A stretch of DNA of 37,865 bases from Sphaeroforma arctica JP610. Its lineage: Eukaryota. A model generated the notes under the pieces. The model saw only the letters and a list, made by a program, of their open reading frames with translations. It was not told the DNA's origin and made no database searches. The DNA is taken from contig NW_014040535.1 in the NCBI RefSeq assembly GCF_001186125.1, positions 158,588 to 196,452 on the forward strand, in the 5' to 3' direction. The translations under genes and the position numbers were made by a program. Positions 14,946 to 37,038 of the stretch are shown piece after piece. Position 1 is the first letter of the stretch; each line of letters starts with the position of its first letter.

Positions 14946-17470
14946 ATGGGTTTATTACAGAATTTTAGTAATTCTGCATTTGCTAGGATTTTTGAGATAC
15001 ATCTTTTTGGCGACCTGGTAATCATGTGGTCATATTGTGTTCATGGCCCTAACTCAAACAAATCCGAGACACTGACAGACTCATAGGGCATAGTTGTACA
15101 GCGATCGTATACTAATAGGTCATGGAGAGAATCAGTTGTTCTATTCTTATCTTTGTAGCTTGCAAACTTATGCTGGTCGAAATACGAGGGGATCAATTCA
15201 CGTTTTGCTCCAACAAACAATCAAGTACGACAATCAGGGAGTACCAAACCAAATAGTCGAATGTTTCGTATCGATTTATTGATGCCAGGAAAAACCTGCT
15301 GAGCTCTCCAAGGGTCCAAATCATAGCGAAAGACTGTGTGTCGTTCCTGGCATCAATATGATTAAGTAGTAATACACCTATTAATATTAATGTTTTTAGA
15401 TCAAACTCGCGGCTTGGAGACAAGTCGTTGTTCTACCCCAGACCATATCAAAAAAAAAGAGCGTATGTATAGTAAATTTTCTACCCGCGCTTACATCAAT
15501 TCCTCGCATCTAGTACGCAAGATGGGTGTCACTAGATTCTTAGAGTACTTAACGGTCGATGGCTTGTCTAGTACGAAACAGAAGACGGCTTCCACACACA
15601 TAAATCACCTGGGGCCACTTGTAGAAAATAAACACTATTTTATTGATGCTTAATCACTGTTACATCTTGCGTTGACACGCTGCACACGTAATAGTTTTTT
15701 GAATGCATATGAGCTTGCTGGTGGAATACACAACTTAACACCCGAGAAAATCAAGACATGTAAGCTGTGCGCTAATACCTGTACGAATATCCTTGGATAT
15801 TCGCATCTTCTCTTAGATAGAAATATGCCGCTAGCTAAAGCAAATGAACGAAATGAACATCTTAGAGATGAACGCCTTAGAGCTGCGTGCAAGGAACAGT
15901 TGCTACAAAGAAATGTACCAAGTGTTGGTCTAGTGCGTGTAATACAACTTAGGACTAAACAAAGGTTGCAATCGGTTTTTGTAAAACATTGAAGTGCGAA
16001 TATTGGGTTGCACCGTACGAAGCAGATGCACAGCTCGTACATATTTGTCGAGAATCAGAGGTGAACAGTTTTGGTGCAGCTGTCGACTCCAATTTTTCTG
16101 TGTATGAAGGTGGTGTACATATTTGTTTCTCACTAGCCACTGAGACCGCGAAAGATTCACCATCATTCAAGGTGCCCATACTTACTGGTGAACAGCCAAA
16201 TATATTTCTAGAGAATAACAAAGGATTGACTGATACATTATTTATGGCGCGTACGCCACTTGCATAGTGCTAGAGGGCCGTTGCATAGATTAAGAATCGA
16301 CACTGCGGTGGAGATTGTGAAATTGCATCTTGATGAGTATGGCACGGCAACTCAGAATGAGGATGTTCTAGTAGCGTTGCGCGTTCGAGCTTAGGCGACA
16401 TTGAATTCGAGAAGTGCGAATACGCTGTCATACAGGCATTGCATGCATATAAATACGCATGGGTATTCGACAAGGTAGGAACCATTTGCATATCACTAGG
16501 CATGTGTTGATGAGTCTTCTAATACGGATGTCAATATATCTGTTGTCAAGATAGTTTAGCTATTGCATATTGTTCAGGAGAGATTAAACCCCTCACTCAT
16601 ACTCGAAAGGGCAATAATTGCCCTTTATGGTATATGTCCATTTCCAGAAAGCGTTAAAAATACACAAACAACAATAGAAAAGAAAAGATGGTATTCCAAA
16701 GAATGTTATGCTTGATTATTTAGGTATTCCCACTTACGAAAAAAGTCAGAACCGTACTGCCGTGCACATTCCAAAAACTGATAAAAACTACACTACCCAC
16801 GGATGCTAAGAATGCTTGTAAATACAAGTGGATGGATATCACAGTATTGACTGCCTGCGCTCAAGCAACCGGCGATGTGACAGCTACAGCACGCGTGCCT
16901 CGTACTCAGAATACAACTCTGATGGAAGCGTATGCAATATTAAAGGTCGGTGAGGACAAGCAAGTTTATAGATGGAAAAGATTTTGAATTTGTCAGTTAG
17001 ATTTGTAAGAGACTGTGTACACGCGGCGGCACTAATATGGATCGTGTCTCAGCAAGCTGTATGGGCACGTGTGAACGAATTGAAGCGCTTATAATTCGAT
17101 TCTAAGGTGCAGCGTAGACAATGCACAAACAAGGGTCATCCGGAATTGAGCTGTGCACAAAACAATATGTGTAAGTGGATAGTGCCAACCGGTATTTTGG
17201 CTGAAGATATTTGTACGACACCCACACTCCTTGTGATTGAAGCCCCTCACACTATCGCATAGGGATAGTATTATTTATTTCAATTCGCATAGCGCCAAGA
17301 AAATCTAATTGCGTGAGTTAAGTCATGCGTATATCTTCGCAAATAAAGCAAGTTCGGGATAGCCTAAAGCCAAAACAACCACGCCGTGTACGCCTAGAAT
17401 CATTGTCTACAGTAAGTATACAGATGCTACTATTCACTGACACGACAGCCGAGTTTTGGAGTGCACGTAT
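14946..17470 (+). pseudogene. Accessory gene of element A: EXO1/XPG(FEN1)-like nuclease plus SWIM-type region; last codons at 25561-25615, beyond the LTR element
   Basis: XPG-I motif EYWVAPYEADAQLVHI...AVDSNFSVY (VAPYEADAQL at 16007-16036). Weaker EXO1-like segments are LQTYAGR (~15160) and ALHAYKYAWVFD (~16437-16472). These are followed by MLDYLGIPTYEK..RTAVHI, KWMDI, MEAYAIL, CVHAAALIW (17014), SCAQNNMCKW and TTAEFW, all matching the accessory protein of element B. Frameshifts and stops are present, and the start at 14946 is tentative. Confidence 0.7.
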
Positions 17471-18019
17471 TGTAGAAATACGGCCTCCGGTCAGTTTAAA
17501 ATATCAAGATCAAATGAGATAACACGTTGGTTTTTATTCCAATATTTCTAAAGTGTTCTAAATTCACTTTGATGGCTCCAATAGCCTGAGTCTGGTATGA
17601 CTCATTTACTTGGACCTATTTGAGACGATAATAGATGTAGGAACTAAATTTCATAATCTCTGAACTACTACTTACAGGTTTTGGTCTTCCCGCCAATCTC
17701 CAAAATCCAACAAGAATTTTTCTTTTTTTACTTTTCTTCAGATGGAACTTTATTTATATTAGCTAATGTATTAACTTGACTTACGTTCTTATGTCTATCT
17801 ACAAATTAGACATGTGGTCATGAACACTTAGTACTTCTAGTGAAGATTATTCAATAAAGAACAGCTAGAGGTACGTCCTGTGTGATCGAGTATATTAAGG
17901 CTCTTACCAAGAGGCAGTCCCGATCATTCTTATACCACTGCTAAATCCTAACTGACTTACATTATATCTTAGTTTGTATAACATAGTTTAAAACATAGAA
18001 ATATCCATCGAAGTTTACA
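17471..18019 (+). repeat. 5' LTR (549 bp)
   Basis: tgtagaaatacggcc...gaagtttaca, a direct repeat of 24957-25556; AATAAA at ~17853. Confidence 0.97.
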
Positions 18020-18207
18020 TATATTTCAGTTATTTAGTAGTTACCGTAGTGTACTGCTTCTAGACTGTCTAACAATTGCTTACTATCCAGCGCCAGGACT
18101 GTAAATATTCTATACTACCTCATAGTGGCTAGTACTACCCTAAAGTTAGCTACACGCTAGTTACTATACCTAGACTTTATTATTTTTCCTATTCTTGAGC
18201 TATTACT

Positions 18208-20608
18208 ATGCCTAAATGAAATTCAAAAGGCAAGGGACCCGCCAGCTCTAAGCCTGCTAAGCCTGTTGAGGTTCCTGAGGTTACTGGGGACGCTGGTCCG
18301 TCTGGTACTGAGCCTGCCGTTGAAGCTGTAGTGGAAGCCGTTGAAGCTGTAGAGGAAGCCGTTTCTGAGCTTGGTTCTGAGGCAAACTCTGAGGATGACT
18401 CGTCGGACCCTAAAGCCTTGGAAGTGGAGGTCTCAACTGCCGCGGAAAGGCTCACCAGCGTCCGTGTGTCTCTTAGTAGTGCAGCCCAGGGCCTTAGCTC
18501 GCCATCTGACCGCGAAAAGTCAGATATTGGAAAGGCTATGTCTCCTGAACAAGTGGAGGAATCGTCTCGAGATCGACGGTTTATTACTACTAAAAATCAG
18601 CCCAATCCACTTGTTAACAAAGATGGTGGCGTTCCATTTCGTGAAATTTCATTGAATGCCTCGCCACTGAATACCTCGCCACTGAATGCCTCGCCACTGA
18701 ATGTTGGGGCGGAAGACGCAAATGTTGGGGACGCCATAACTAGACAACGAGTGGTTGGATCTTTTCAATCTCGACGCCCTTTGAACCGCAAAGATGTGGA
18801 AGTGGAGGTCGAAGTGGAGGTCTCAACTGCCGCGGAAAGGCTCACCAGCGTCCGTGTGTCTCCTAGTAGTGCAGCCCAGGGCCTCAGCTCGCCATCTGAC
18901 CGCGAAAAGTCAGATATTGGAAAAGCTATATCTCCTGAACAAGTGGAGGAATCGTCTCGAGATCGACGGTTTATTACTACTAAAAATCAGCCCAATCCAC
19001 TTGTTAACAAAGATGGTGGCGTTCCATTTCGTGAAATTTCATTGAATGCCTCGCCACTGAATGCCTCGCCACTGAATGTTGGAGCGGAAGACGCAAATGT
19101 TGGGGACGCCATAACTCGACAACGAGTGGTTGGATCTTCTCAATCTCGACGCCATTTGAACCGCAAAGATGAGCTTTTAAAGGAGCAAGCTGCTGCCGCA
19201 GCTGCTGACCCTTAGATCATATCCCACGTGGCTGATATTCTTCCTATACCGAATATATATATATATATTCCTAGCCGGGTTTCAAATCTGGGACCCACTG
19301 GTTTACCAGCCAGCAGGGTTACCACTGAGCCAGTTACCGCTGGTGAAGTGGGTAAAACTTCAACATCTAATCTCTATAGCTCGGAAGCTACAATCGACCA
19401 TCCTCTCGACAACCCTAACCCTGTCAGAGGCTATGATCGTATGGAAATCGGTGAGGCTTACCACCCTCATAACATCGATCCTCATTTATCGTCTAACCAT
19501 GGTAATCACGACTTTGGTAATCGTTATACCAGTACCTCACTAGAGAGTACCCACTCTAGCTCTGAAGACGAGGAAGTGAGAACCAGACACCATCGTCTCA
19601 GGCTATTACGTTCTGGTATGCAAGTCATTGAGGGCAGTCTATTGAATGACTCTGACCTTGACGATAAGAAGCGGATAACATTTGCTATCTAATCGATAAC
19701 AAGAGAAAGGAGATAGACTCCATCTTGGCACTAGCAACCCGTAGCACTGAGCGTGAGCCTCGTGAACGCTTCGAACCAAGCTTTATAAAGCAGCTAGGTA
19801 ACGCGAAGGCTGAAGTCGATTCTCTACTAATGAGAGTACAGTGGGGACACTGAAGGTCTTTGACCAGCTTAAGGAGTCTGCCAGCCTTAAGGATAAGCAG
19901 ATAATGAATGCCTTTATTCATTTCTATGAGACAGAGGAATGGATAACTATCTTGAAGGCCTATGAGCCCAACTGGAAATCCCTACCCTGGCGCCAGTTGC
20001 GTGAGAATATACGTAACGCCTTCTTTGAATATGCACGTGACCGTGAACTTCTAGAATCTCGCAAGTCCTTTGCGAATGATACTACTATTCGAGGTACTCT
20101 AGCTCGTATGACACATATGAACACTCGGATGGGAGGTCGTACATATACTGCGAATATTTATTAATTTGTCAGATGATGGAGACTCTGGGGGCTAACCTTT
20201 TTAGGAAGGTCAATGATGATATTATCGCCGATGGTGATTTGCGATCTATGCCTTGGTCTGTCTTTGAGATGATAGTTCAAAAGCATACCAACCCATCTAC
20301 TAGAGTACTTAGTACCTCGAAATTTACCCAGCCCGCTAAGCGTACCGCGATAGAAACCTCGCACTACTGCTGGAGGTGGTAAAGGCGCTACATCTACTGA
20401 ACCAAAGGGTGAAAGGAAGGAGAGAGCACCTTGCAAGAAGTGTGGTTACAACCTCACTAAACGTGGTGGCAAGTGGAATGGTAAACACGACTCTGTTAAG
20501 TGTGCACCAGGCAAGCCAAACTTTGGACATTGTATGAAAGAGTGTAATACTTGCAAGGGTACTAACGGTTGGCACAAAGATGATTGCAAGGACATACCGG
20601 ACGTCTAA
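18208..20608 (+). pseudogene. gag: gag-like ORF, disrupted
   Basis: ATG at 18208 (MPK*NSKGKGP) is in frame with ORFs 18331-19215 and 19228-19692. A helical region follows at 19841-20330, then C-terminal Zn-knuckle-like motifs CKKC-x14-H-x4-C and CNTC-x6-H-x3-C (~20432-20587). Several stops and frameshifts are present. Confidence 0.8.
18421..19170 (+). repeat. In-frame ~390-bp tandem duplication in gag with nested 15-bp LNASP repeats
   Basis: EVEVSTAAERLTSVRVS...LNRKD occurs twice (starts 18421 and 18811); there are 3 versus 2 LN(A/T)SP units. Confidence 0.95.
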
Positions 20609-22535
20609 GTTAAGCACTGACAGTTTTATATGTGTGCACTAGAGCAAGATTATGAGAAAAAGTTCAATAAAATCTATACCAAAGGAGATGAACGTATATT
20701 TCAAACCGTTTATGTAAATGGAGAAAAAGTTATAGCACTTTTTGATCCAGGGGCTGAAGTCTCTGTTATCTCGCGCCGAGTAGCCTACGCTACAGATATG
20801 GCTATCCATAACGAAACAACTAATTTAATCTTGGGAAATGGCAAAGTTACCACTTGCGAAGAAGCCATTGACTATGCACACATAATGTTGTCAGATAGAA
20901 GAGAAGTGAAGACTCACCTAATCGTTACTGACATGTCTCAGAAATACGATTTAATTATAGGTATGACTGGTCTTCTCAGTTTAGGTATAACTCTCACTGG
21001 TCTGCCTAATGGACTAGACCCAAATAAAGATCAGTCAGATGATAACATGTTAAAGATACCCAAACCTCCGGAAGGTGAAGCAAAGGATATGATTCCGCAC
21101 TTTACCTATTTAGTTATGGACTTAATTATACAAAACAGGAAGATTGCAATAACTGACTGGTGTATGTTTAAGTTCTCTAACGGGCACGTGAAGCTTGACT
21201 TAACAAACGTCGACTTCTCTAAGTTAAAGTGTCCTTCACATAATTACGTGGGTTGGAGACACAAAGACGTTGTCAAAACCCAAATTGAAGATTGGTTAAA
21301 ACATGGTCTAATTGAAATCAATTATGATGCAATCCCAGTTGACTTAGCTCTGTTAGCGGTTGATCAATATAAATCTGATGGAACGTTTAGTAAAACAAGA
21401 GTAGTACTAGACCTGTCGCCTATCAACAAACTAATTCCGCAACATAGTTTTCCCTTACCAAAGATAAGCGAGATACTACGCAAAATGAAAGGTACGACTA
21501 TCTTTTCCAAGGTATACTTAAAAAGCTGCATTCCATCAATTACAAATATATGAGCCGCATAGGAAATACTATACCTTTACTTGGCAAGGTAAGAAGTACC
21601 AGTTTAAATGTGCACCTGAAGGCTTACACATGTTACCTTCTTTCTTCCAACAAGTTACGATGGAACTATGGACCTGTCGGATAACGTATCACTATATTTA
21701 GATGATATAGTTATCTTTACAAAGACAGCACATGAACATGCTAAACTCGTTAAGGAAGTCTTAAAGCGACTAAACCATGTCAAACTTAAGATTAACGAGG
21801 ACAAGTGTTCTTTTGCTAAAGATACTATACACTTAGTTGATTACAAGGTATCTGCAGCAGGGGTAGAAATTGATACCGGCACGAAACAATTTCTGTTGGA
21901 TTTATGAACACCGATTACTGGAAGAGATGTGAACTCTGTGTGTGTGTTTGTTAACTTCTTCTCAGATTCGGTACCTCATCTTTCTCATTACTTAAAGCCT
22001 TTCAGTCACCTACGGCTGCACAAAGGACCTTTGGGAAAGCTCTGGACTAAAGAATGTGATGATACATTTAAGCTAGTCAAAAGTAAAGTAATGGACGCAT
22101 CCATCATGAAATACCCCGTGGATGGCGTTCCATTCTAAGTAACAACCGACGCTTCAGATCGAGCGGTATGTGGAATGCTATACCAAACGATAAATGGTAA
22201 AGCACGCTACATACAATTCTTTAGCAAGAGTTATAATAAGAGTCAACGGAATTACCCTACCGTTAAACAAGAGCTCCTTGCTATTGTTACTGCGCTAAGA
22301 CAATTTTAAAGACTACCTTTATGGAAGTTACTTCGCTGTCGCCTGTGATCAAAAGTCTTTAACATATTTAAAGGACATGAACCCTGATTCACAGTTGGTG
22401 AGCCGCTGGCATGACATTATTGCTAGCTTCGCTTTTAACATTACACACATACCAGGAATACATAATCATCTTCCTGACATGCTCTCTCGACTTGTCCCTG
22501 ACTACCAGAAAACAGTTATAGAGTTATTAACAACC

Positions 22536-22934
22536 GATTGGAAGCTTAATAAGAAATGGTTTAACCTCGCTCAATCAAGATGGGGTCCATTTACTATTGA
22601 TATGTTCGCCGCAGAACACAACAAACAGGTTTCTGATTATAGGTCGTTGACTTATCCTAATGGTGATGCCTTTCAACTTGACTTATCAAAGCATACTGCG
22701 TGGGCTAACCCACCTCGGCAACTTATCGCACAGTTGTTAAATTATGTTAATATTACTAGATCTACCATTACGCTGTGTTGTCCCTTACGTAGCTCCGACC
22801 CATGGATATGTGATTTAGTTAATATGATACAAGACGAGGCTATCTATGTCGACCGTGAAACCGACACGTTCTTGTATCAGGGATCCTATTCTATTAAGAA
22901 GACACCTTGGAAACACACCACCGTTTGTCGCATC
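22536..22934 (+). other. Dam-like N6-adenine DNA methyltransferase domain within pol
   Basis: DWKLNKKWF...WGPFTIDMFAAEHN (SAM-binding motif), DAFQLD, WANPPR (catalytic NPP[FYW] motif) and LCCPLRSSDPW, in frame directly after the RNase H DMLSR end. Confidence 0.88.
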
Positions 22935-24407
22935 GGTCCTGCTGGTATCACTAAGTGGAAACCCTCAACCGAGTTCTTAGCTAAACTAGAGGAGTCTAAG
23001 GAGTTTGAACAAAAGCTCAAGACTCTTACAACACATGCACCCAACAAGAATGCAGTCGAGGTAATGCCGATTGAGACTGCATTAGATCGTAAAAACATGG
23101 AACTAGCTAAGGCCATGGGTCAAAGACTCAAAGCTCTAAGAGAGCCTGAAGCTCGCACTCAACTACTTAAAGGGCTGCTTAAAGAACAGCCAGGAGTTGC
23201 GAAACAACTGAAGAAGATACTTCAACAATATAGTGTTGTTAATTACGTATCTCAGGAGTCTACCCCTCCTGATACCGAAGTTGCCATATCTAACGGGACT
23301 ATGGTTCATCCAGCCAGCGTTACACAGAATCTGACTGACTTAGAAGAGCTCGAGAGTAGAGTTAAAATATTACATAATTGAACTCATCGAGCATATGAGC
23401 ATACTTATAAGATGGCTATTCGTGCAGGGCTTGATCACCCTGCGCTGAAAGAAACCATACGTGAAGTATACCAACGCTGTGCTGATTGTGAAAAGAATCA
23501 GATCAAGCGCTACGGTTGGGAACCCCTAAAAAGTGTGACAGAAGACCAACCGATGGGCCGAGTCTTGTCGATTTGGTCAAACTCCCTCAATCCAAGCATA
23601 CTGGCGATGCATATATCTGTCATTTCTTATGTGTGGCTTCGGGCTATAACTTGCTTTGTGCAGTACCGAACATACGCCCGCAAACAGTGGCTGAGTTATG
23701 CTATCACGTCTTTAATGACTTCGATTTCCCCCGAGTACTATGTTCTGATAACGGTATTGAGTTTTGTACCGACGTAATGGAGGCACTTATACTCGAATCA
23801 GGCATGACCCATAGGCGTGGTGTTCCTTATAAACCTCAAACGCAGGGTGCAAATGAGACACGTCTTAGAGAACTAAAGAAGCTATTGCATACCACACTAG
23901 ATGACGTTGAGGATATGTGGCCTTATCATTTGAAATGGGTTCAGACTCAAATGAATAACTGCATGAATAACACTCCCGCTTCACTATTTCTTTGGCCGCT
24001 ATAGTGAATTACAAGCAACGTTTGACAAACCTGCGCCTGAGAAACACGATACTCCGTGGCTACAAAAAGATCGAGCATATGCAGAACGTTGTTTACCCCT
24101 ATTTACTCGAGCACAAGAATCGTGTCCTACTTAAAGCGTATGACCGATGAAATAACACTTAAAAAACATTGTTAAGTTCAAAGTTGGCGATTATGTTAAC
24201 ATTATAAATCGCAATGCCAACGTTACCGAACTCTCTTCTAAGACAATTGTACCTTTTGTTATTTCCTACCATGATGAGAAGAGTGATACTTACGAAGTGA
24301 ATAACATAGATGGTACTAACGCAACTAGTTTAGGCACTCACCGTATCCATACCTCCGAACTCTCATTCGCTCGCTCATTTGATTCTGATGACCCAGTTAT
24401 AGAGTCA

Positions 24408-24551
24408 CAAGTCAAAGATATAATTGTCAAAACATCCGAAGACGGTTACACTTACTACAAGACCCGTTTTATGGATGGGACAGTAGCTTGGCTAACCTCC
24501 TATGCGTTTCGCGAATCTCGCGACTTCCTTCGTATTTTTAATAAGAAATGG
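24408..24551 (+). other. Chromodomain-like module at the integrase C-terminus
   Basis: QVKDIIV...GYTYYKTRFMDGTVAWL...FLRIFNKKW resembles the chromo pattern V..Il.......Y.vkW.....tW and sits where chromoviruses carry it; it is divergent. Confidence 0.55.
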
Positions 24552-24956
24552 AATAAGCGTTTACATAAGAATATACGTGATAAACGGAACGTGTTTCCTC
24601 AGGTGACTACAAACCCGGATGGATCTGAAATTCCCTATTTGCCACCTACTTCCTATGTGACTAAACTTTCTGATCTGCTTACCAACAGAGCAGAAAATTC
24701 TTTGAATTTACATACTAATGAAGAACAACTTTTGGCTATTACCTTACCAGGTAATAAACGTAAGGCGCCTACATCGAAAATGGTTACTGGACCAAATACT
24801 AAACGACATAGAGTACAACATGAGTCTTGAACTCGTACATGTAGGCACATACTTACTCGATATGCCATGAACAAAACCGTTTTACTTTGGGTTTCGCTTT
24901 ACGAACTAGATCGTACCTTCACGTACGTCCATAGTCCTAAAAGCCACTGGGGGCTA

Positions 24957-25556
24957 TGTAGAAATACGGCCTCCGGTCAATCTAAAATATCAAGATCAAA
25001 TGAGATAATACATTGGTTTTTATTTGTATTTAAAATAATTTAATACAATTGTTTTTCCCCAATATTTCCAAAGTGTTCTAAATTCACTTTGATGGCTCCA
25101 ATAGCCTGAGTATTTGGTATGACTCATTTACTTGGACCTATTTGAGACGATAGTAGATGTAGAATATTATAAACTAGATTTTATAATCTCTGAACTACTA
25201 CTTACAGGTTTTGGTCTTCCCGCCAATCTCCAAAATCCAATAAGTCTTTCTCTTTTTTAACTTTTCTTCAGATGGAACTTTATTTATATTAGCTAATGTA
25301 TTAACTTGACTTACGTTCTTATGTCTATCTACTAATTAGATATGTGGTCATGAACACTTAGTACTTCTAGTGAAGATTATTCAATAAAGAACAGCTAGAG
25401 GTACGTCCTGTGTGATCGAGGATATTAAGACCCTTACCAAGAGGCAGTCCCGATCATTCTTACACAAGCTACCACTGCTAAATCCTAACTGACTTACATT
25501 GTATCTTAGTTTATATAACATAGTTTAAAACATACAACTATCCATCGAAGTTTACA
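24957..25556 (+). repeat. 3' LTR (600 bp)
   Basis: Direct repeat of the 5' LTR, preceded only by a weak G-run polypurine-tract candidate (ctgggggcta). Confidence 0.97.
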
Positions 25557-25660
25557 GTATGAGACATTGGGTATCGATTACCCATATGACTGCATTTTCC
25601 TCTCTTGATCAATAAAATATTTTGAAATTGATATCGGTGTACACTTTTGTAATATAAAAA

Positions 25661-26420
25661 TCATACTTTAGATGCCACATCACGGCGTACTATTAGAGAA
25701 ATAGTAAAAGTTAGGTAGAAGAAAGTCTGAACAGCAATGATGAAGAAGTGAAGATTCAACTCTTTTACTTCATCAGCCAGCATCTCAAAAATCTTCACTC
25801 GGTGAAATACTTGCTCTATGTGTATGCGCGAAAACGCGGAGGTACATTATACTTGAACGCAGGTTTAAACATATGCTGTATGAGGAATCCCTTATCGCCC
25901 AAAATGGATTCGCCATCCCATAAATCATTGGATAACGCTTCCTTGTAACATCCTCCATAAACTGGAGAGGCAAATACACAATGGCCAGCTTCCAGACATT
26001 GCAAGCAGTTGTTTTGCGATATTATGATACTTGTATGTGCTCCATGTTGATTATTGTATATCGAGGTTCGATAATGTCTCAATGTAAAACTCGGTGCAAT
26101 CTATTACTATCATAGTTGTAAGATATTCTTCTTTTAAACACGGAAGCAACAATACTTGATTATGGGAAAATACTCTACATATACATGGCCTACATGGGAA
26201 AGTCACTAAATGTAGATACAAATTTACGCGTACATTTCTCATTACTCAATCAAATTCTCTGAATGTGATTTTCATTTCCTGTCTCAAATTTATTTTAAAT
26301 AATTATGTAAGGTGCCTTTTTAAGGACTCCTTATCACATTTAGAAACTTTTGAGTGCAAAATGTTTAATGACAACAGGGTTCGAAACCAGTTCGGTAGTT
26401 TATATGGCTGCGTGTTATAT
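25661..26420 (-). pseudogene. DDE_Tnp_4 (ISL2EU/Harbinger-type) transposase of element A; 5' end unresolved
   Basis: YRTGFE, IVIDCTEFYIETLSNLDIQ, FASPVYGG, ILGDKGFLI...YNVPP and RIHIEQVFHRVKIFEML; frameshifted. Confidence 0.85.
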
Positions 26421-30539: not shown

Positions 30540-32160
30540 ATAATAAAGCAGCCTCGCTAAGAAGAGACGCACTAAGGATCCTGCAAAGGACATGCAGCAT
30601 GAAGCTCATGCGGCCGCAATATCTAATGCCGCTGGCCAATTGTGCGATTTTCAGAAAGAGCTTGATGCACTGCGAATAAAAGTTCATAATACAGAGACCA
30701 AGTCTGCACTTCTAGGAGTTGAACACAAAACTGAAATCGATCGAATGCAGAGGAGCTTAAATGAGAAACAACATAGGTTTGACAATATGGCAATAATTTT
30801 CAAAACAACTCGCGTGTACAAGATTTCATATGAATATATCTTCGGCGATAAAAAGAAGGCACGTTTCTGGACTGGGTTCCAGACTCCGAGAAAATTCCTG
30901 GCCTTGATGCTTTAGAATAGTATTGTAAACCAATTCGCGCAGGAAGAAATTATGTTCCTTTCAGAAATGCAATACTGATGTGTTTTGGAAGAGTTCGTCG
31001 AAATCTTGATTTAGGCGTGGTCGGACATTTATTTGGGCTCGACTGGACACAAAGCGTATTTAATGTTTTAAATGATATGAACGCCATACTCCTTGGTTAC
31101 TTCCGTCATCCCGCAAATGCTCCCGATGAATTTATTTACACCGGAAATTGACAACAAGTTACGTTCACCTTGTTTCGAAAAGAAACATTCGACGACGGCA
31201 CTGGGAATTGATTGCACAGGTTTATATACACTTTGATATTAATCTTAGTTTATAACACAGATTATACAGCAGGTTATGTGCATCATGGTATATTCGGGTT
31301 GGATTGAATACTAATGTACAATGCCTTGATTTTGACCCATTCACATAATTCTTTATCTAGACACCATCAAATCTAGATTTCCAATAAAAAACGTCCAGTT
31401 TAAACAAACATCACAGTAATGTTTTAAATGATATGAACGCCATAATCCTTGGTTACTTCCGTCATCCCGCAAATGCTCCCGATGAATTTATTTACACCGG
31501 GAATTGACAACAAGTTACGTTCACCTTGTTTCGAAAAGAAACATTCGACGACGGCGCTGGTAATTGATTGCACAGGTTTATATACATTTTGATATTAATC
31601 TTAGTTTATAACACAGATTATACAGCAGGTTATGTGCATCATGGTATGTTTGGGTTGGATTGAATACTAATGTACAATGCCTTGATTTTGACCCATTCAC
31701 AAAATTCTTTATCTAGACACCATCAAATCTAGATTTCCAATAAAAAACGTCCAGTTCAAACAAACATCACAGTACACTTAAAATGCTGACATTGTGTATA
31801 TGTGTCGCCGTTATATCTTGGGCGGTTAAGTGATCGAGAAATTTCGGAATTGTGCAAAGAGGCATTGTACGAAAAACTGTGGCTTGGTTCTTCTGCGATG
31901 GGCGACAAAGGTTTTCATATCGCAGATTTATTGCCTGAGGGATGCACGTACAACGTACCACCAATGCTTCGAAAGGACAATCAGTTTACTGGCAGACCGA
32001 TAAAACAATCCAAATAGAGCGAGTTATTTGTAGAGCGAAGCTTTTCGAAATGGTTGCTCAAGAAATGCATACTTTAGATATACATTTCTTTATAATCGCT
32101 GCCGAAATGTGCTTCTATTTGAAGGACATTGTCTCACCTTTTATGAGACAAGACGCCTAA
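30540..32160 (+). pseudogene. DDE_Tnp_4 (ISL2EU-type) transposase of element B, apparently intron-containing; 5' end unresolved
   Basis: A coiled coil, then RFWTGFQT, LGIDCT|gt...ag|TPSNLDFQ, SPLYLGRLSDREI, AMGDKGFHIADLL...YNVPP and IQIERVICRAKLFEMV. Confidence 0.88.
31061..31772. repeat. Near-identical 356-bp tandem duplication inside transposase B
   Basis: taatgttttaaatgatatgaacgccat... starts at 31061 and 31417. Confidence 0.92.
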
Positions 32161-36020: not shown

Positions 36021-37038
36021 TTGATGCTACGTTGTTGATGTTAGCCTTTCAACATTGCGTACGCAATGAATGATGCGTTCTTGAGACTTTCATTTTTAAA
36101 GATTATATTTCGACCTCCAGCAGAAAACATACACACTTTAAATGTTGTTGGATTTTGCCGTGCCAGATGCGTGATAAGATTGAAGAATAAATTAACACTT
36201 GAATACATCAGAAAATCGGAGTCGCTAGCCGCGATGAAAGCACTATCGCCAAATAAACGAAACAAGTAAGCAATCTGGGAATTAGCTTCATAAGGTGCAA
36301 TATAATATTACGATCTCATGGTCATGCATGTGCCTACACTTACACGGGTGTGTTCTCACGTACGCACACATGTCATGGACAATAGCTTTATACCTTGCGC
36401 TGAGGAGCCCAGGCGTGGTTTGTCAAGCTTTTGCTAATCAGCGTGCGCATTTGACTTCTCGTTTCCTTCTCATGGCGTTTTGCTAAAGGTACGTCCCTAT
36501 CGAGCACAAATATAGATGTGCATTCTAAAGTTGTGGTGCAATTTTAGGAATGCAGCGTTTTTGTGAACATGTAGCGATCTTGCTAGTTCTAAAGCGCTCA
36601 AGAAATTATTGCTTGTACAATGTCTGATCGCATAGTGTATGATCGCTGACGCGTCGATATAGCATAATTTATTTCCAACTTGAGCTCTGAGGGCTGAAAT
36701 ATGTGATACTTATTTTTTGATCTGCGTGATCCTAACAGCATCTTTCTGCACACATGTGAGTAGTTGTTGGACATCCATATGGCGAATAAAATGTATTGTA
36801 TGTTTCGAGGAAGTGCACTACTGTGTATGTCAAATACAATATTTATCCATTAAAAATCAAACCATGTGCGAAAATCAGTTGTCCCCACTTTTTTCTTGAA
36901 ATTGATTTTTCTCAGGTCTATTGAACAGATCACTCATTGTATACGCGAGACAGGCAGATAGATTCCGATGTTACATTTGTTTCTCGATATGCAACATACC
37001 ACGACCGCTGGGGAGAATATTTTGCATTGGAAAGGACA

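What the first reader, a model, noticed from the sequence alone, without database searches (positions are those of the whole stretch)
22536..22934. Ty3/Gypsy LTR retrotransposon carrying a Dam-like adenine methyltransferase between RNase H and a DDE integrase
Seen: in one open frame the RNase H end (HIPGIHNHLPDMLSR) runs into DWKL...F...WGPFTIDMFA..N...DAF..D....WANPP..LI..LL....LCCP.....PW, then a linker and the start of the integrase zinc finger. The element has true TG..CA LTRs and a 4-bp TSD. Established: this Dam-like domain directly after RNase H is characteristic of DIRS1-type tyrosine-recombinase retrotransposons, and it is not part of canonical Gypsy pol. Inference: a Gypsy lineage captured the domain, possibly from a DIRS element, and could 6mA-mark its own cDNA or insertion site. 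I cannot confirm that this arrangement is unreported.
Basis: partly seen in the sequence, partly recalled or inferred. Interest (0 to 1): 0.92.

Follow-up and report, generated by a model that had tools for sequence, protein, structure and literature searches.

The report
Decayed Gypsy retrotransposon with adenine methyltransferase
This is a broken copy of a Gypsy-type jumping gene that carries an adenine-methyltransferase domain between two of its normal enzyme parts; the design is real, but a 2026 preprint already described it, likely in this same protist lineage, and what the domain methylates is still untested.

Summary
Window 17471-25556 is a decayed Ty3/Gypsy element (TG..CA LTRs, 4-bp TSD). 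At 22533-22937 it has a Dam-type (PF05869) N6-adenine methyltransferase domain in frame between RNase H and integrase. The domain is family-wide: 12 of 151 relatives examined have RT-RH-MTase-IN in one ORF, and it is as conserved as RT. Its closest named relatives are Sphaeroforma arctica (88%) and Abeoforma whisleri proteins. That fits the 'Ichthyosporean DAM-LTR lineage' of bioRxiv 10.64898/2026.05.21.726589 (main text read in full). This scan also noted the same design before in other genomes. This copy is dead: pol has many stops and frame changes, and the aromatic residue after NPP is lost. Two small additions: (1) the integrase tail holds a degenerate chromodomain-like fold, although the preprint says this lineage lacks chromodomains; (2) the closest solved structure is the RNA cap methyltransferase PCIF1, a link noted in 2015, which suggests single-stranded or hybrid substrates. 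No enzyme activity has been shown; the preprint's E. coli assay was negative.

The parts
17467..17470 (.). left target-site duplication (4 bp)
   Evidence: same 4-mer at 25557-25560
17471..18019 (+). 5' LTR, 549 bp, TG..CA
18193..20610 (+). broken gag-like region with an internal tandem duplication of about 375-390 bp (18421-18796 / 18811-19171) and a Cys/His-rich stretch near its end
   Evidence: position and translation, repeat; no Pfam gag hit, so the assignment is inferred from position
20708..20983 (+). aspartic protease
   Evidence: Pfam Asp_protease_2 above cut-off; 82% to P0001
21242..21856 (+). reverse transcriptase, broken
   Evidence: tblastn to P0001 RT, which has Pfam RVT_1; stops in the aligned piece
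22043..22430 (+). Ty3-type RNase H, split by a frame change near 22304
22533..22937 (+). Dam-type (PF05869) N6-adenine methyltransferase domain; motif I-like DMFA..N at 22599-22622, motif IV-like NPP at 22707-22715 with the following aromatic residue lost in this copy
   Evidence: motif numbering is my recalled labelling
22995..23369 (+). variable linker
   Evidence: 28% identity P0001 vs P0002 against 67% in the MTase domain
23370..24017 (+). integrase HHCC zinc finger and DDE core, broken by a stop and two frame changes
   Evidence: Pfam rve E 4.6e-7, under the cut-off in this copy; above it in P0001; pieces
24183..24365 (+). SH3-like (GPY/F-type) integrase C-terminal module
   Evidence: model residues 1-73 match SH3/Tudor-like folds; Ty3 integrase 7q5b among Foldseek rows, E 0.008
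24402..24551 (+). degenerate chromodomain-like segment
   Evidence: top three VIA rows are chromodomains, Z 7.3-7.7; profile bridge through relatives; no Pfam Chromo hit
24957..25556 (+). 3' LTR, 600 bp, TG..CA
25557..25560 (.). right target-site duplication (4 bp)

Best explanation
This is a dead copy of a multi-copy Ty3/Gypsy retrotransposon whose Pol carries a Dam-type adenine methyltransferase domain between RNase H and integrase; it likely belongs to the published ichthyosporean DAM-LTR lineage, and in intact copies the domain would likely put 6mA on the element's own reverse-transcription intermediate. Shown: the architecture, the fold, its presence across the family, its constraint, and kinship with Sphaeroforma and Abeoforma elements (about 0.9-0.95 for identity). 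Inferred: the domain is packaged with Pol, binds SAM, and methylates adenine in the RNA:DNA hybrid or single-stranded cDNA inside the particle. Host AMT1 would then maintain the mark after integration and keep new insertions transcribed. This is the preprint's model; I give the mechanism about 0.45.
For: Pfam Dam above cut-off. Fold matches phage N6A-MTases, TM up to 0.79, and amino-MTases in the PDB. 12 of 151 proteins examined have RT-RH-MTase-IN in one ORF. MTase identity matches that of RT/RH: 67% vs 61/70% for P0001-P0002, and 41% vs 47/40% for P0001-P0006, with the linker at 28% and 10%. Motif residues in the 16-member clade: D 15/16 (one gap), A 16/16, N 16/16, NPP-Asn 15/16, PP 16/16, aromatic 15/16. 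Subfamily-level variants: 7 synonymous to 6 non-synonymous, where 79% non-synonymous is the neutral share (p 0.01). The same LTR clade appears in the MTase tree (99/99) and the RT tree (97), with Abeoforma members. A Sphaeroforma arctica protein is 88% identical over 139 aa. The preprint reports more 6mA and more transcription on DAM-LTRs in S. arctica and A. whisleri. The structural relative PCIF1 prefers ssRNA > hybrid > ssDNA > dsDNA (PMC9178792 abstract), which would fit a non-dsDNA substrate.
Against: The preprint's heterologous E. coli assay found no 6mA gain. Iyer et al. (PMC4738411, passage) judged all DIRS1 MTase domains likely inactive. Motif IV is eroded in close kin: P0001 has Cys for the catalytic Asn yet keeps an intact 1400-aa ORF, and about 80% of laid depth in 2 of 4 runs has Cys at the aromatic position. 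The 6mA enrichment in the preprint is a correlation and could come from host AMT1 on transcribed copies. The host is inferred from named homologs only; no genome was held. The syn/non-syn count is small and not corrected for transition bias.
Confidence: 0.5

Rival explanations
1. The domain is a catalytically weak or dead module kept for binding the element's RNA or for Pol folding and spacing; any 6mA on the elements comes from host AMT1.
For: Negative E. coli assay. Iyer et al.'s reading of DIRS1 MTases. Intact Pol P0001 lacks the motif IV Asn. A common subfamily variant lacks the aromatic residue. Earlier scan notes report loss of the motif in a fungal lineage (unchecked).
Against: Motif I-like and IV-like residues are kept in 15-16 of 16 clade members across deep divergence, which a pure spacer would not need.
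Confidence: 0.27
2. The domain works like PCIF1/CAPAM: it methylates adenine in the element's RNA (cap-adjacent or internal m6A), affecting RNA stability, translation or packaging rather than DNA.
For: The best solved-structure match is PCIF1 (6irx): Z 10.8, rmsd 3.0 over 133 residues of the 140-aa model, against T4 Dam Z 8.2 and E. coli Dam Z 8.1. Pfam PCIF1_WW hits 15 of 86 aligned relatives. Iyer et al. place DIRS MTases in the PCIF1 clade. An RNA substrate would explain the negative dsDNA assay.
Against: Among predicted viral structures, phage DNA N6A-MTases (TM 0.70-0.79 in the named top rows) rank above PCIF1-like proteins (TM 0.61-0.70 in the rows under E 0.001). Pfam Dam hits 83 of 86 members. 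The PCIF1 lead in the PDB may only reflect the lack of a solved PF05869-type protein. The 140-aa domain is much smaller than PCIF1's 482-aa chain.
Confidence: 0.2
3. A one-off insertion or neutral passenger in this copy.
For: Private changes in this copy are neutral-like, 1 synonymous to 8 non-synonymous, but that reflects decay after insertion.
Against: Contigs cover the domain in 4 of 4 runs and bridge it to RNase H and to the linker. Intact distant relatives carry it in the same place.
Confidence: 0.02

Closest known systems
Ichthyosporean DAM-LTR lineage (Fernandez-Moreno et al., bioRxiv 10.64898/2026.05.21.726589; Pirum, Abeoforma, Sphaeroforma arctica)
   Same: Ty3/Gypsy organisation with a DAM domain in Pol and an Asn-Pro-Pro motif; nearest named relatives are A. 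whisleri and S. arctica proteins.
   Different: The preprint says the lineage lacks chromodomains; here the integrase tail has a degenerate chromodomain-like fold, clearer in the Abeoforma relative P0006. This copy is broken and has lost the aromatic residue after NPP. I could not see the preprint's figures or supplements, so family-level identity is not checked sequence by sequence.
DIRS1-type retrotransposon MT domain
   Same: Same domain directly after RNase H; dozens of RT-containing proteins that end shortly after the domain are among the hits.
   Different: Here it is followed by a DDE integrase, with direct LTRs and a TSD; the RT falls with LTR elements.
Phage Dam, Pfam PF05869
   Same: Profile hit above cut-off and best structural match.
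   Different: 17-24% identity in the best rows; embedded in a eukaryotic polyprotein; activity not shown.
PCIF1/CAPAM cap adenosine N6-methyltransferase
   Same: Best solved-structure match, Z 10.8; same clade according to Iyer et al..
   Different: 15% identity; only the catalytic core aligns.
KnitGypsy-Dnmt3 and SymbioDIRS-Dnmt3 (PMC5890265)
   Same: A DNA methyltransferase captured into a retrotransposon Pol and kept under purifying selection (passages).
   Different: Those are cytosine C5 enzymes of another family.

Membership tests
Ty3/Gypsy LTR retrotransposon | direct LTRs with TG..CA ends and a TSD | tested here: met
Ty3/Gypsy LTR retrotransposon | domain order PR-RT-RH-IN with DDE integrase | tested here: met
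Ty3/Gypsy LTR retrotransposon | recognisable primer-binding site and polypurine tract | tested here: inconclusive
   no TGG-type start after the 5' LTR, no self-priming match over 7 nt, only a short G run before the 3' LTR
DAM-LTR (2026 preprint) | DAM (PF05869) domain in the Pol of a non-DIRS LTR element | tested here: met
DAM-LTR (2026 preprint) | Asn-Pro-Pro motif followed by an aromatic residue | tested here: inconclusive
   NPP is present; the aromatic residue is lost in this copy but kept in 15 of 16 clade members; variable among subfamilies
Ichthyosporean DAM-LTR lineage | DAM and RT group with Abeoforma/Sphaeroforma elements | tested here: met
   MTase clade 99/99 with three Abeoforma rows (the group was defined from the first tree); RT clade 97 with one Abeoforma row; S. 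arctica protein 88%.
Ichthyosporean DAM-LTR lineage | no chromodomain (as the preprint describes it) | tested here: inconclusive
   no Pfam Chromo hit, but a degenerate chromodomain-like fold is indicated
Ichthyosporean DAM-LTR lineage | raised 6mA and transcription on insertions; host encodes AMT1 | not testable with these tools
   no genome held, no modified-base data
DIRS1-type YR retrotransposon | tyrosine recombinase in place of DDE integrase; inverted or split repeats, no TSD | tested here: not met
   DDE integrase, direct LTRs and TSD found
Chromovirus | chromodomain at the integrase C-terminus | tested here: inconclusive
   VIA Z 7.7, rmsd 2.2 over 59 residues to the SUV39H1 chromodomain, with a model built on an alignment that held true chromodomains; direct hhalign to Pfam-positive chromodomains only 1.2%, bridged 94.5% and 97.1% through relatives
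Active N6-adenine methyltransferase | SAM-dependent methyl transfer to adenine N6 | not testable with these tools
   fold and motifs only; the preprint's assay was negative

The most novel reading that the evidence does not exclude
Ichthyosporean DAM-LTRs are cryptic chromoviruses that pair a degenerate chromodomain with a PCIF1-like methyltransferase acting on single-stranded or hybrid nucleic acid inside the particle (element RNA, RNA:DNA hybrid or nascent cDNA). This would explain why dsDNA assays in E. coli failed and would make the first test of any retroelement adenine methyltransferase straightforward.
Probability: 0.2. Interest if true: 0.6.

Novelty: already known. Interest (0 to 1): 0.27.

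Why it matters
Retrotransposons that write their own activating mark would be a neat way to exploit host 6mA chromatin, but that idea and this lineage are already in a 2026 preprint. What remains open is the substrate. The PCIF1-like fold points to RNA, hybrid or single-stranded assays in place of dsDNA. The hidden chromodomain-like tail, if real, corrects the preprint's description of this lineage. Natural motif IV variants within one family offer a built-in test of whether catalysis matters for 6mA on insertions.

Tried and rejected
No whole genome was held, so genomic copies could not be counted and AMT1 could not be sought. Sequence search of the PDB with the domain gave nothing useful; with alignment A3 it found only RT/RNase H. 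A near-length homolog search found no stand-alone relative, which is no evidence either way. Foldseek on the PDB gave no match at E <= 0.001 for either model. The metagenome scan used RNase H patterns and gave 4 loci, none with an MTase-profile hit, so no DNA of intact relatives and no codon-alignment dN/dS. No RNA holder was listed; runs guessed to be RNA were laid but say nothing on expression. Summed contig depth was not used as copy number. Self-priming and PBS searches were inconclusive. A direct profile match of the window's tail to Pfam-positive chromodomains failed (1.2%), and an HMM built from relatives scored it only E 0.91, below a decoy ORF. The ESM Atlas gave unnamed eukaryotic clusters and one with Dam on 14% of members. 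The DIRS donor was not resolved: trees are unrooted and no test_one_clade was run. Search by sequence of earlier scan notes was blank. Literature searches. One search listed 10 of 134 papers; no title or abstract start there reports a chromodomain in ichthyosporean DAM-LTRs, but I did not read them.

Full report
Observation. The frame 22299-23381 holds the quoted motifs in order. Pfam places RT_RNaseH at its start and Dam (PF05869) next; on 22533-22937 alone Dam scores 28.8 bits against a cut-off of 28.1. Protease lies upstream and an rve integrase core downstream. Two LTRs, 17471-18019 and 24957-25556, begin TG and end CA, share 525 of 549 aligned columns (K2P 0.045), and are flanked by the same 4-mer (chance 0.0055). 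The frame stops just after the first His of the integrase zinc finger. Against the intact relative P0001, pol aligns in four pieces in alternating frames with 11 stops inside them, so this copy is dead.

The domain is a methyltransferase fold. An AlphaFold model from 86 sequences has pLDDT 95. Among predicted viral structures its best matches are phage DNA N6-adenine methyltransferases (TM 0.75-0.79, E about 1e-8), with PCIF1-like proteins next. Among solved structures the best is PCIF1/CAPAM (Z 10.8, rmsd 3.0, 133 residues), then Erm/KsgA-type RNA m6A enzymes, T4 Dam (8.2) and E. coli Dam (8.1). Foldseek on the PDB gave no match at E <= 0.001, though its top rows were methyltransferases.

It is not a one-off. 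Two intact Pol proteins, P0001 (81% in the domain) and P0002 (66%), have RT-RH-Dam-IN in one ORF. A search of 1.84 billion representatives found 620 relatives at E <= 0.001 and listed 150. Of the 151 proteins then examined, 12 have RT-RH-MTase-IN in one ORF and 16 have the domain followed by integrase; many others are RT proteins that end soon after the domain, as DIRS Pol does (I labelled these DIRS-like by architecture only). Contigs from 4 of 4 public runs cover the domain and bridge it to RNase H and to the linker.

It is under constraint. Identity in the domain equals that in RT and RNase H and far exceeds the linker (P0001-P0002: 67% vs 61, 70 and 28%; P0001-P0006: 41% vs 47, 40 and 10%). 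Of 29 variant rows I used 22 and dropped 7 seen at a notable share only in the shallow run X17. Nine are private to this copy (1 synonymous, 8 not; neutral decay). Thirteen differ between subfamilies (7 synonymous, 6 not; neutral share of non-synonymous 79%, p 0.01, uncorrected for transition bias). Against this, motif IV is eroded in close kin: this copy has Arg after NPP, P0001 has Cys for Asn, and a common subfamily in two runs has Cys at the aromatic position.

Lineage. The nearest named relatives are three Abeoforma whisleri proteins and a Sphaeroforma arctica protein that is 88% identical over 139 aa spanning the end of the domain and the linker. The window's domain falls in a 16-member LTR clade with the Abeoforma rows (98 in a quick tree of 68 rows; 99/99 in a careful tree of 38 rows whose bootstrap had not fully settled; the group was defined from the first tree). 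RT gives the matching 9-member clade (97, 35 rows; P0001 stood in for the broken window RT). This suggests one capture at the base of the clade. The trees are unrooted and name no DIRS donor. The host is inferred to be Sphaeroforma or a close relative; no genome was held.

Prior art. bioRxiv 10.64898/2026.05.21.726589 (main text read in full; figures and supplements not seen, and these may list this family) claims the first report of DAM domains in non-DIRS LTR retrotransposons. It defines five lineages, one of them ichthyosporean (Pirum, Abeoforma, S. arctica), reports more 6mA and expression on these elements, found no activity in E. coli, and proposes methylation of RNA-DNA intermediates followed by host AMT1 maintenance. 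Iyer et al. (PMC4738411, passages) place DIRS MTases in the PCIF1 clade and call them likely inactive; the preprint does not mention PCIF1. De Mendoza et al. (PMC5890265, passages) give the cytosine parallel. Yu et al. (PMC9178792, abstract and passages) give PCIF1's substrate order. Earlier notes of this scan reached the same preprint for other genomes; I had found it on my own.

Small addition. The preprint says this lineage lacks chromodomains, and Pfam finds none here. But the integrase tail aligns with Pfam-positive chromodomains of other DAM-LTRs. Relatives' tails match them by hhalign at 97.1%, and the window family's tail matches those relatives at 94.5%, though its direct match is only 1.2%. 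A model of the tail (pLDDT 79.5) has three chromodomains as top rows (Z 7.3-7.7). The model was built with true chromodomains in its alignment and Z under 8 is modest, so I call this a likely degenerate chromodomain (about 0.75), function unknown.

Mechanism. Shown: architecture, fold, family-wide presence, constraint. Inferred: packaging with Pol, SAM binding, 6mA on the hybrid or single-stranded cDNA, upkeep by host AMT1 (about 0.45-0.5). Rivals: dead binding module (0.27), PCIF1-like RNA methylation (0.2), neutral insertion (0.02).

Verdict. Real and well supported, but already known: a decayed copy of a published kind, likely of the published lineage. Interest 0.27.

Noticed in passing
window 24402-24551: Degenerate chromodomain-like segment at the end of integrase, much clearer in relatives such as P0006 and P0014; the aromatic cage positions (recalled labelling) look altered in this family.
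   Followed up: partly
window 22716-22718; runs X1 and X7: About 80% of laid depth in 2 of 4 runs has Cys at the aromatic position after NPP, and intact P0001 has CPPW: motif IV varies among amplified subfamilies.
   Followed up: partly
proteins P0064, P0072: 2.1-2.4 kaa polyproteins with the order AP-type endonuclease (Exo_endo_phos), Dam, RT, RNase H, integrase zinc finger (P0072 also with an upstream protease): an odd LINE/LTR-like mosaic with Dam before RT.
   Followed up: no
protein P0048 with P0085: A chromodomain LTR element whose Dam domain pairs with a DIRS-like row (97/90): a candidate separate capture from DIRS.
   Followed up: no
window 18421-19171: Tandem duplication of about 375-390 bp in the gag-like region, 94% identical.
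   Followed up: no
window 15959-16264 and 36044-36307: Two XPG_I (FEN1/Exo1-like) nuclease fragments in a gene-poor, repeat-rich window; possibly parts of a decayed DNA transposon.
   Followed up: no
window 31790-32014 and 25819-26100: Harbinger-like DDE_Tnp_4 transposase fragment and a similar-looking fragment on the minus strand without a Pfam hit.
   Followed up: no
window 18020-18045: No recognisable tRNA primer-binding site or self-priming match after the 5' LTR; priming mode unexplained.
   Followed up: partly
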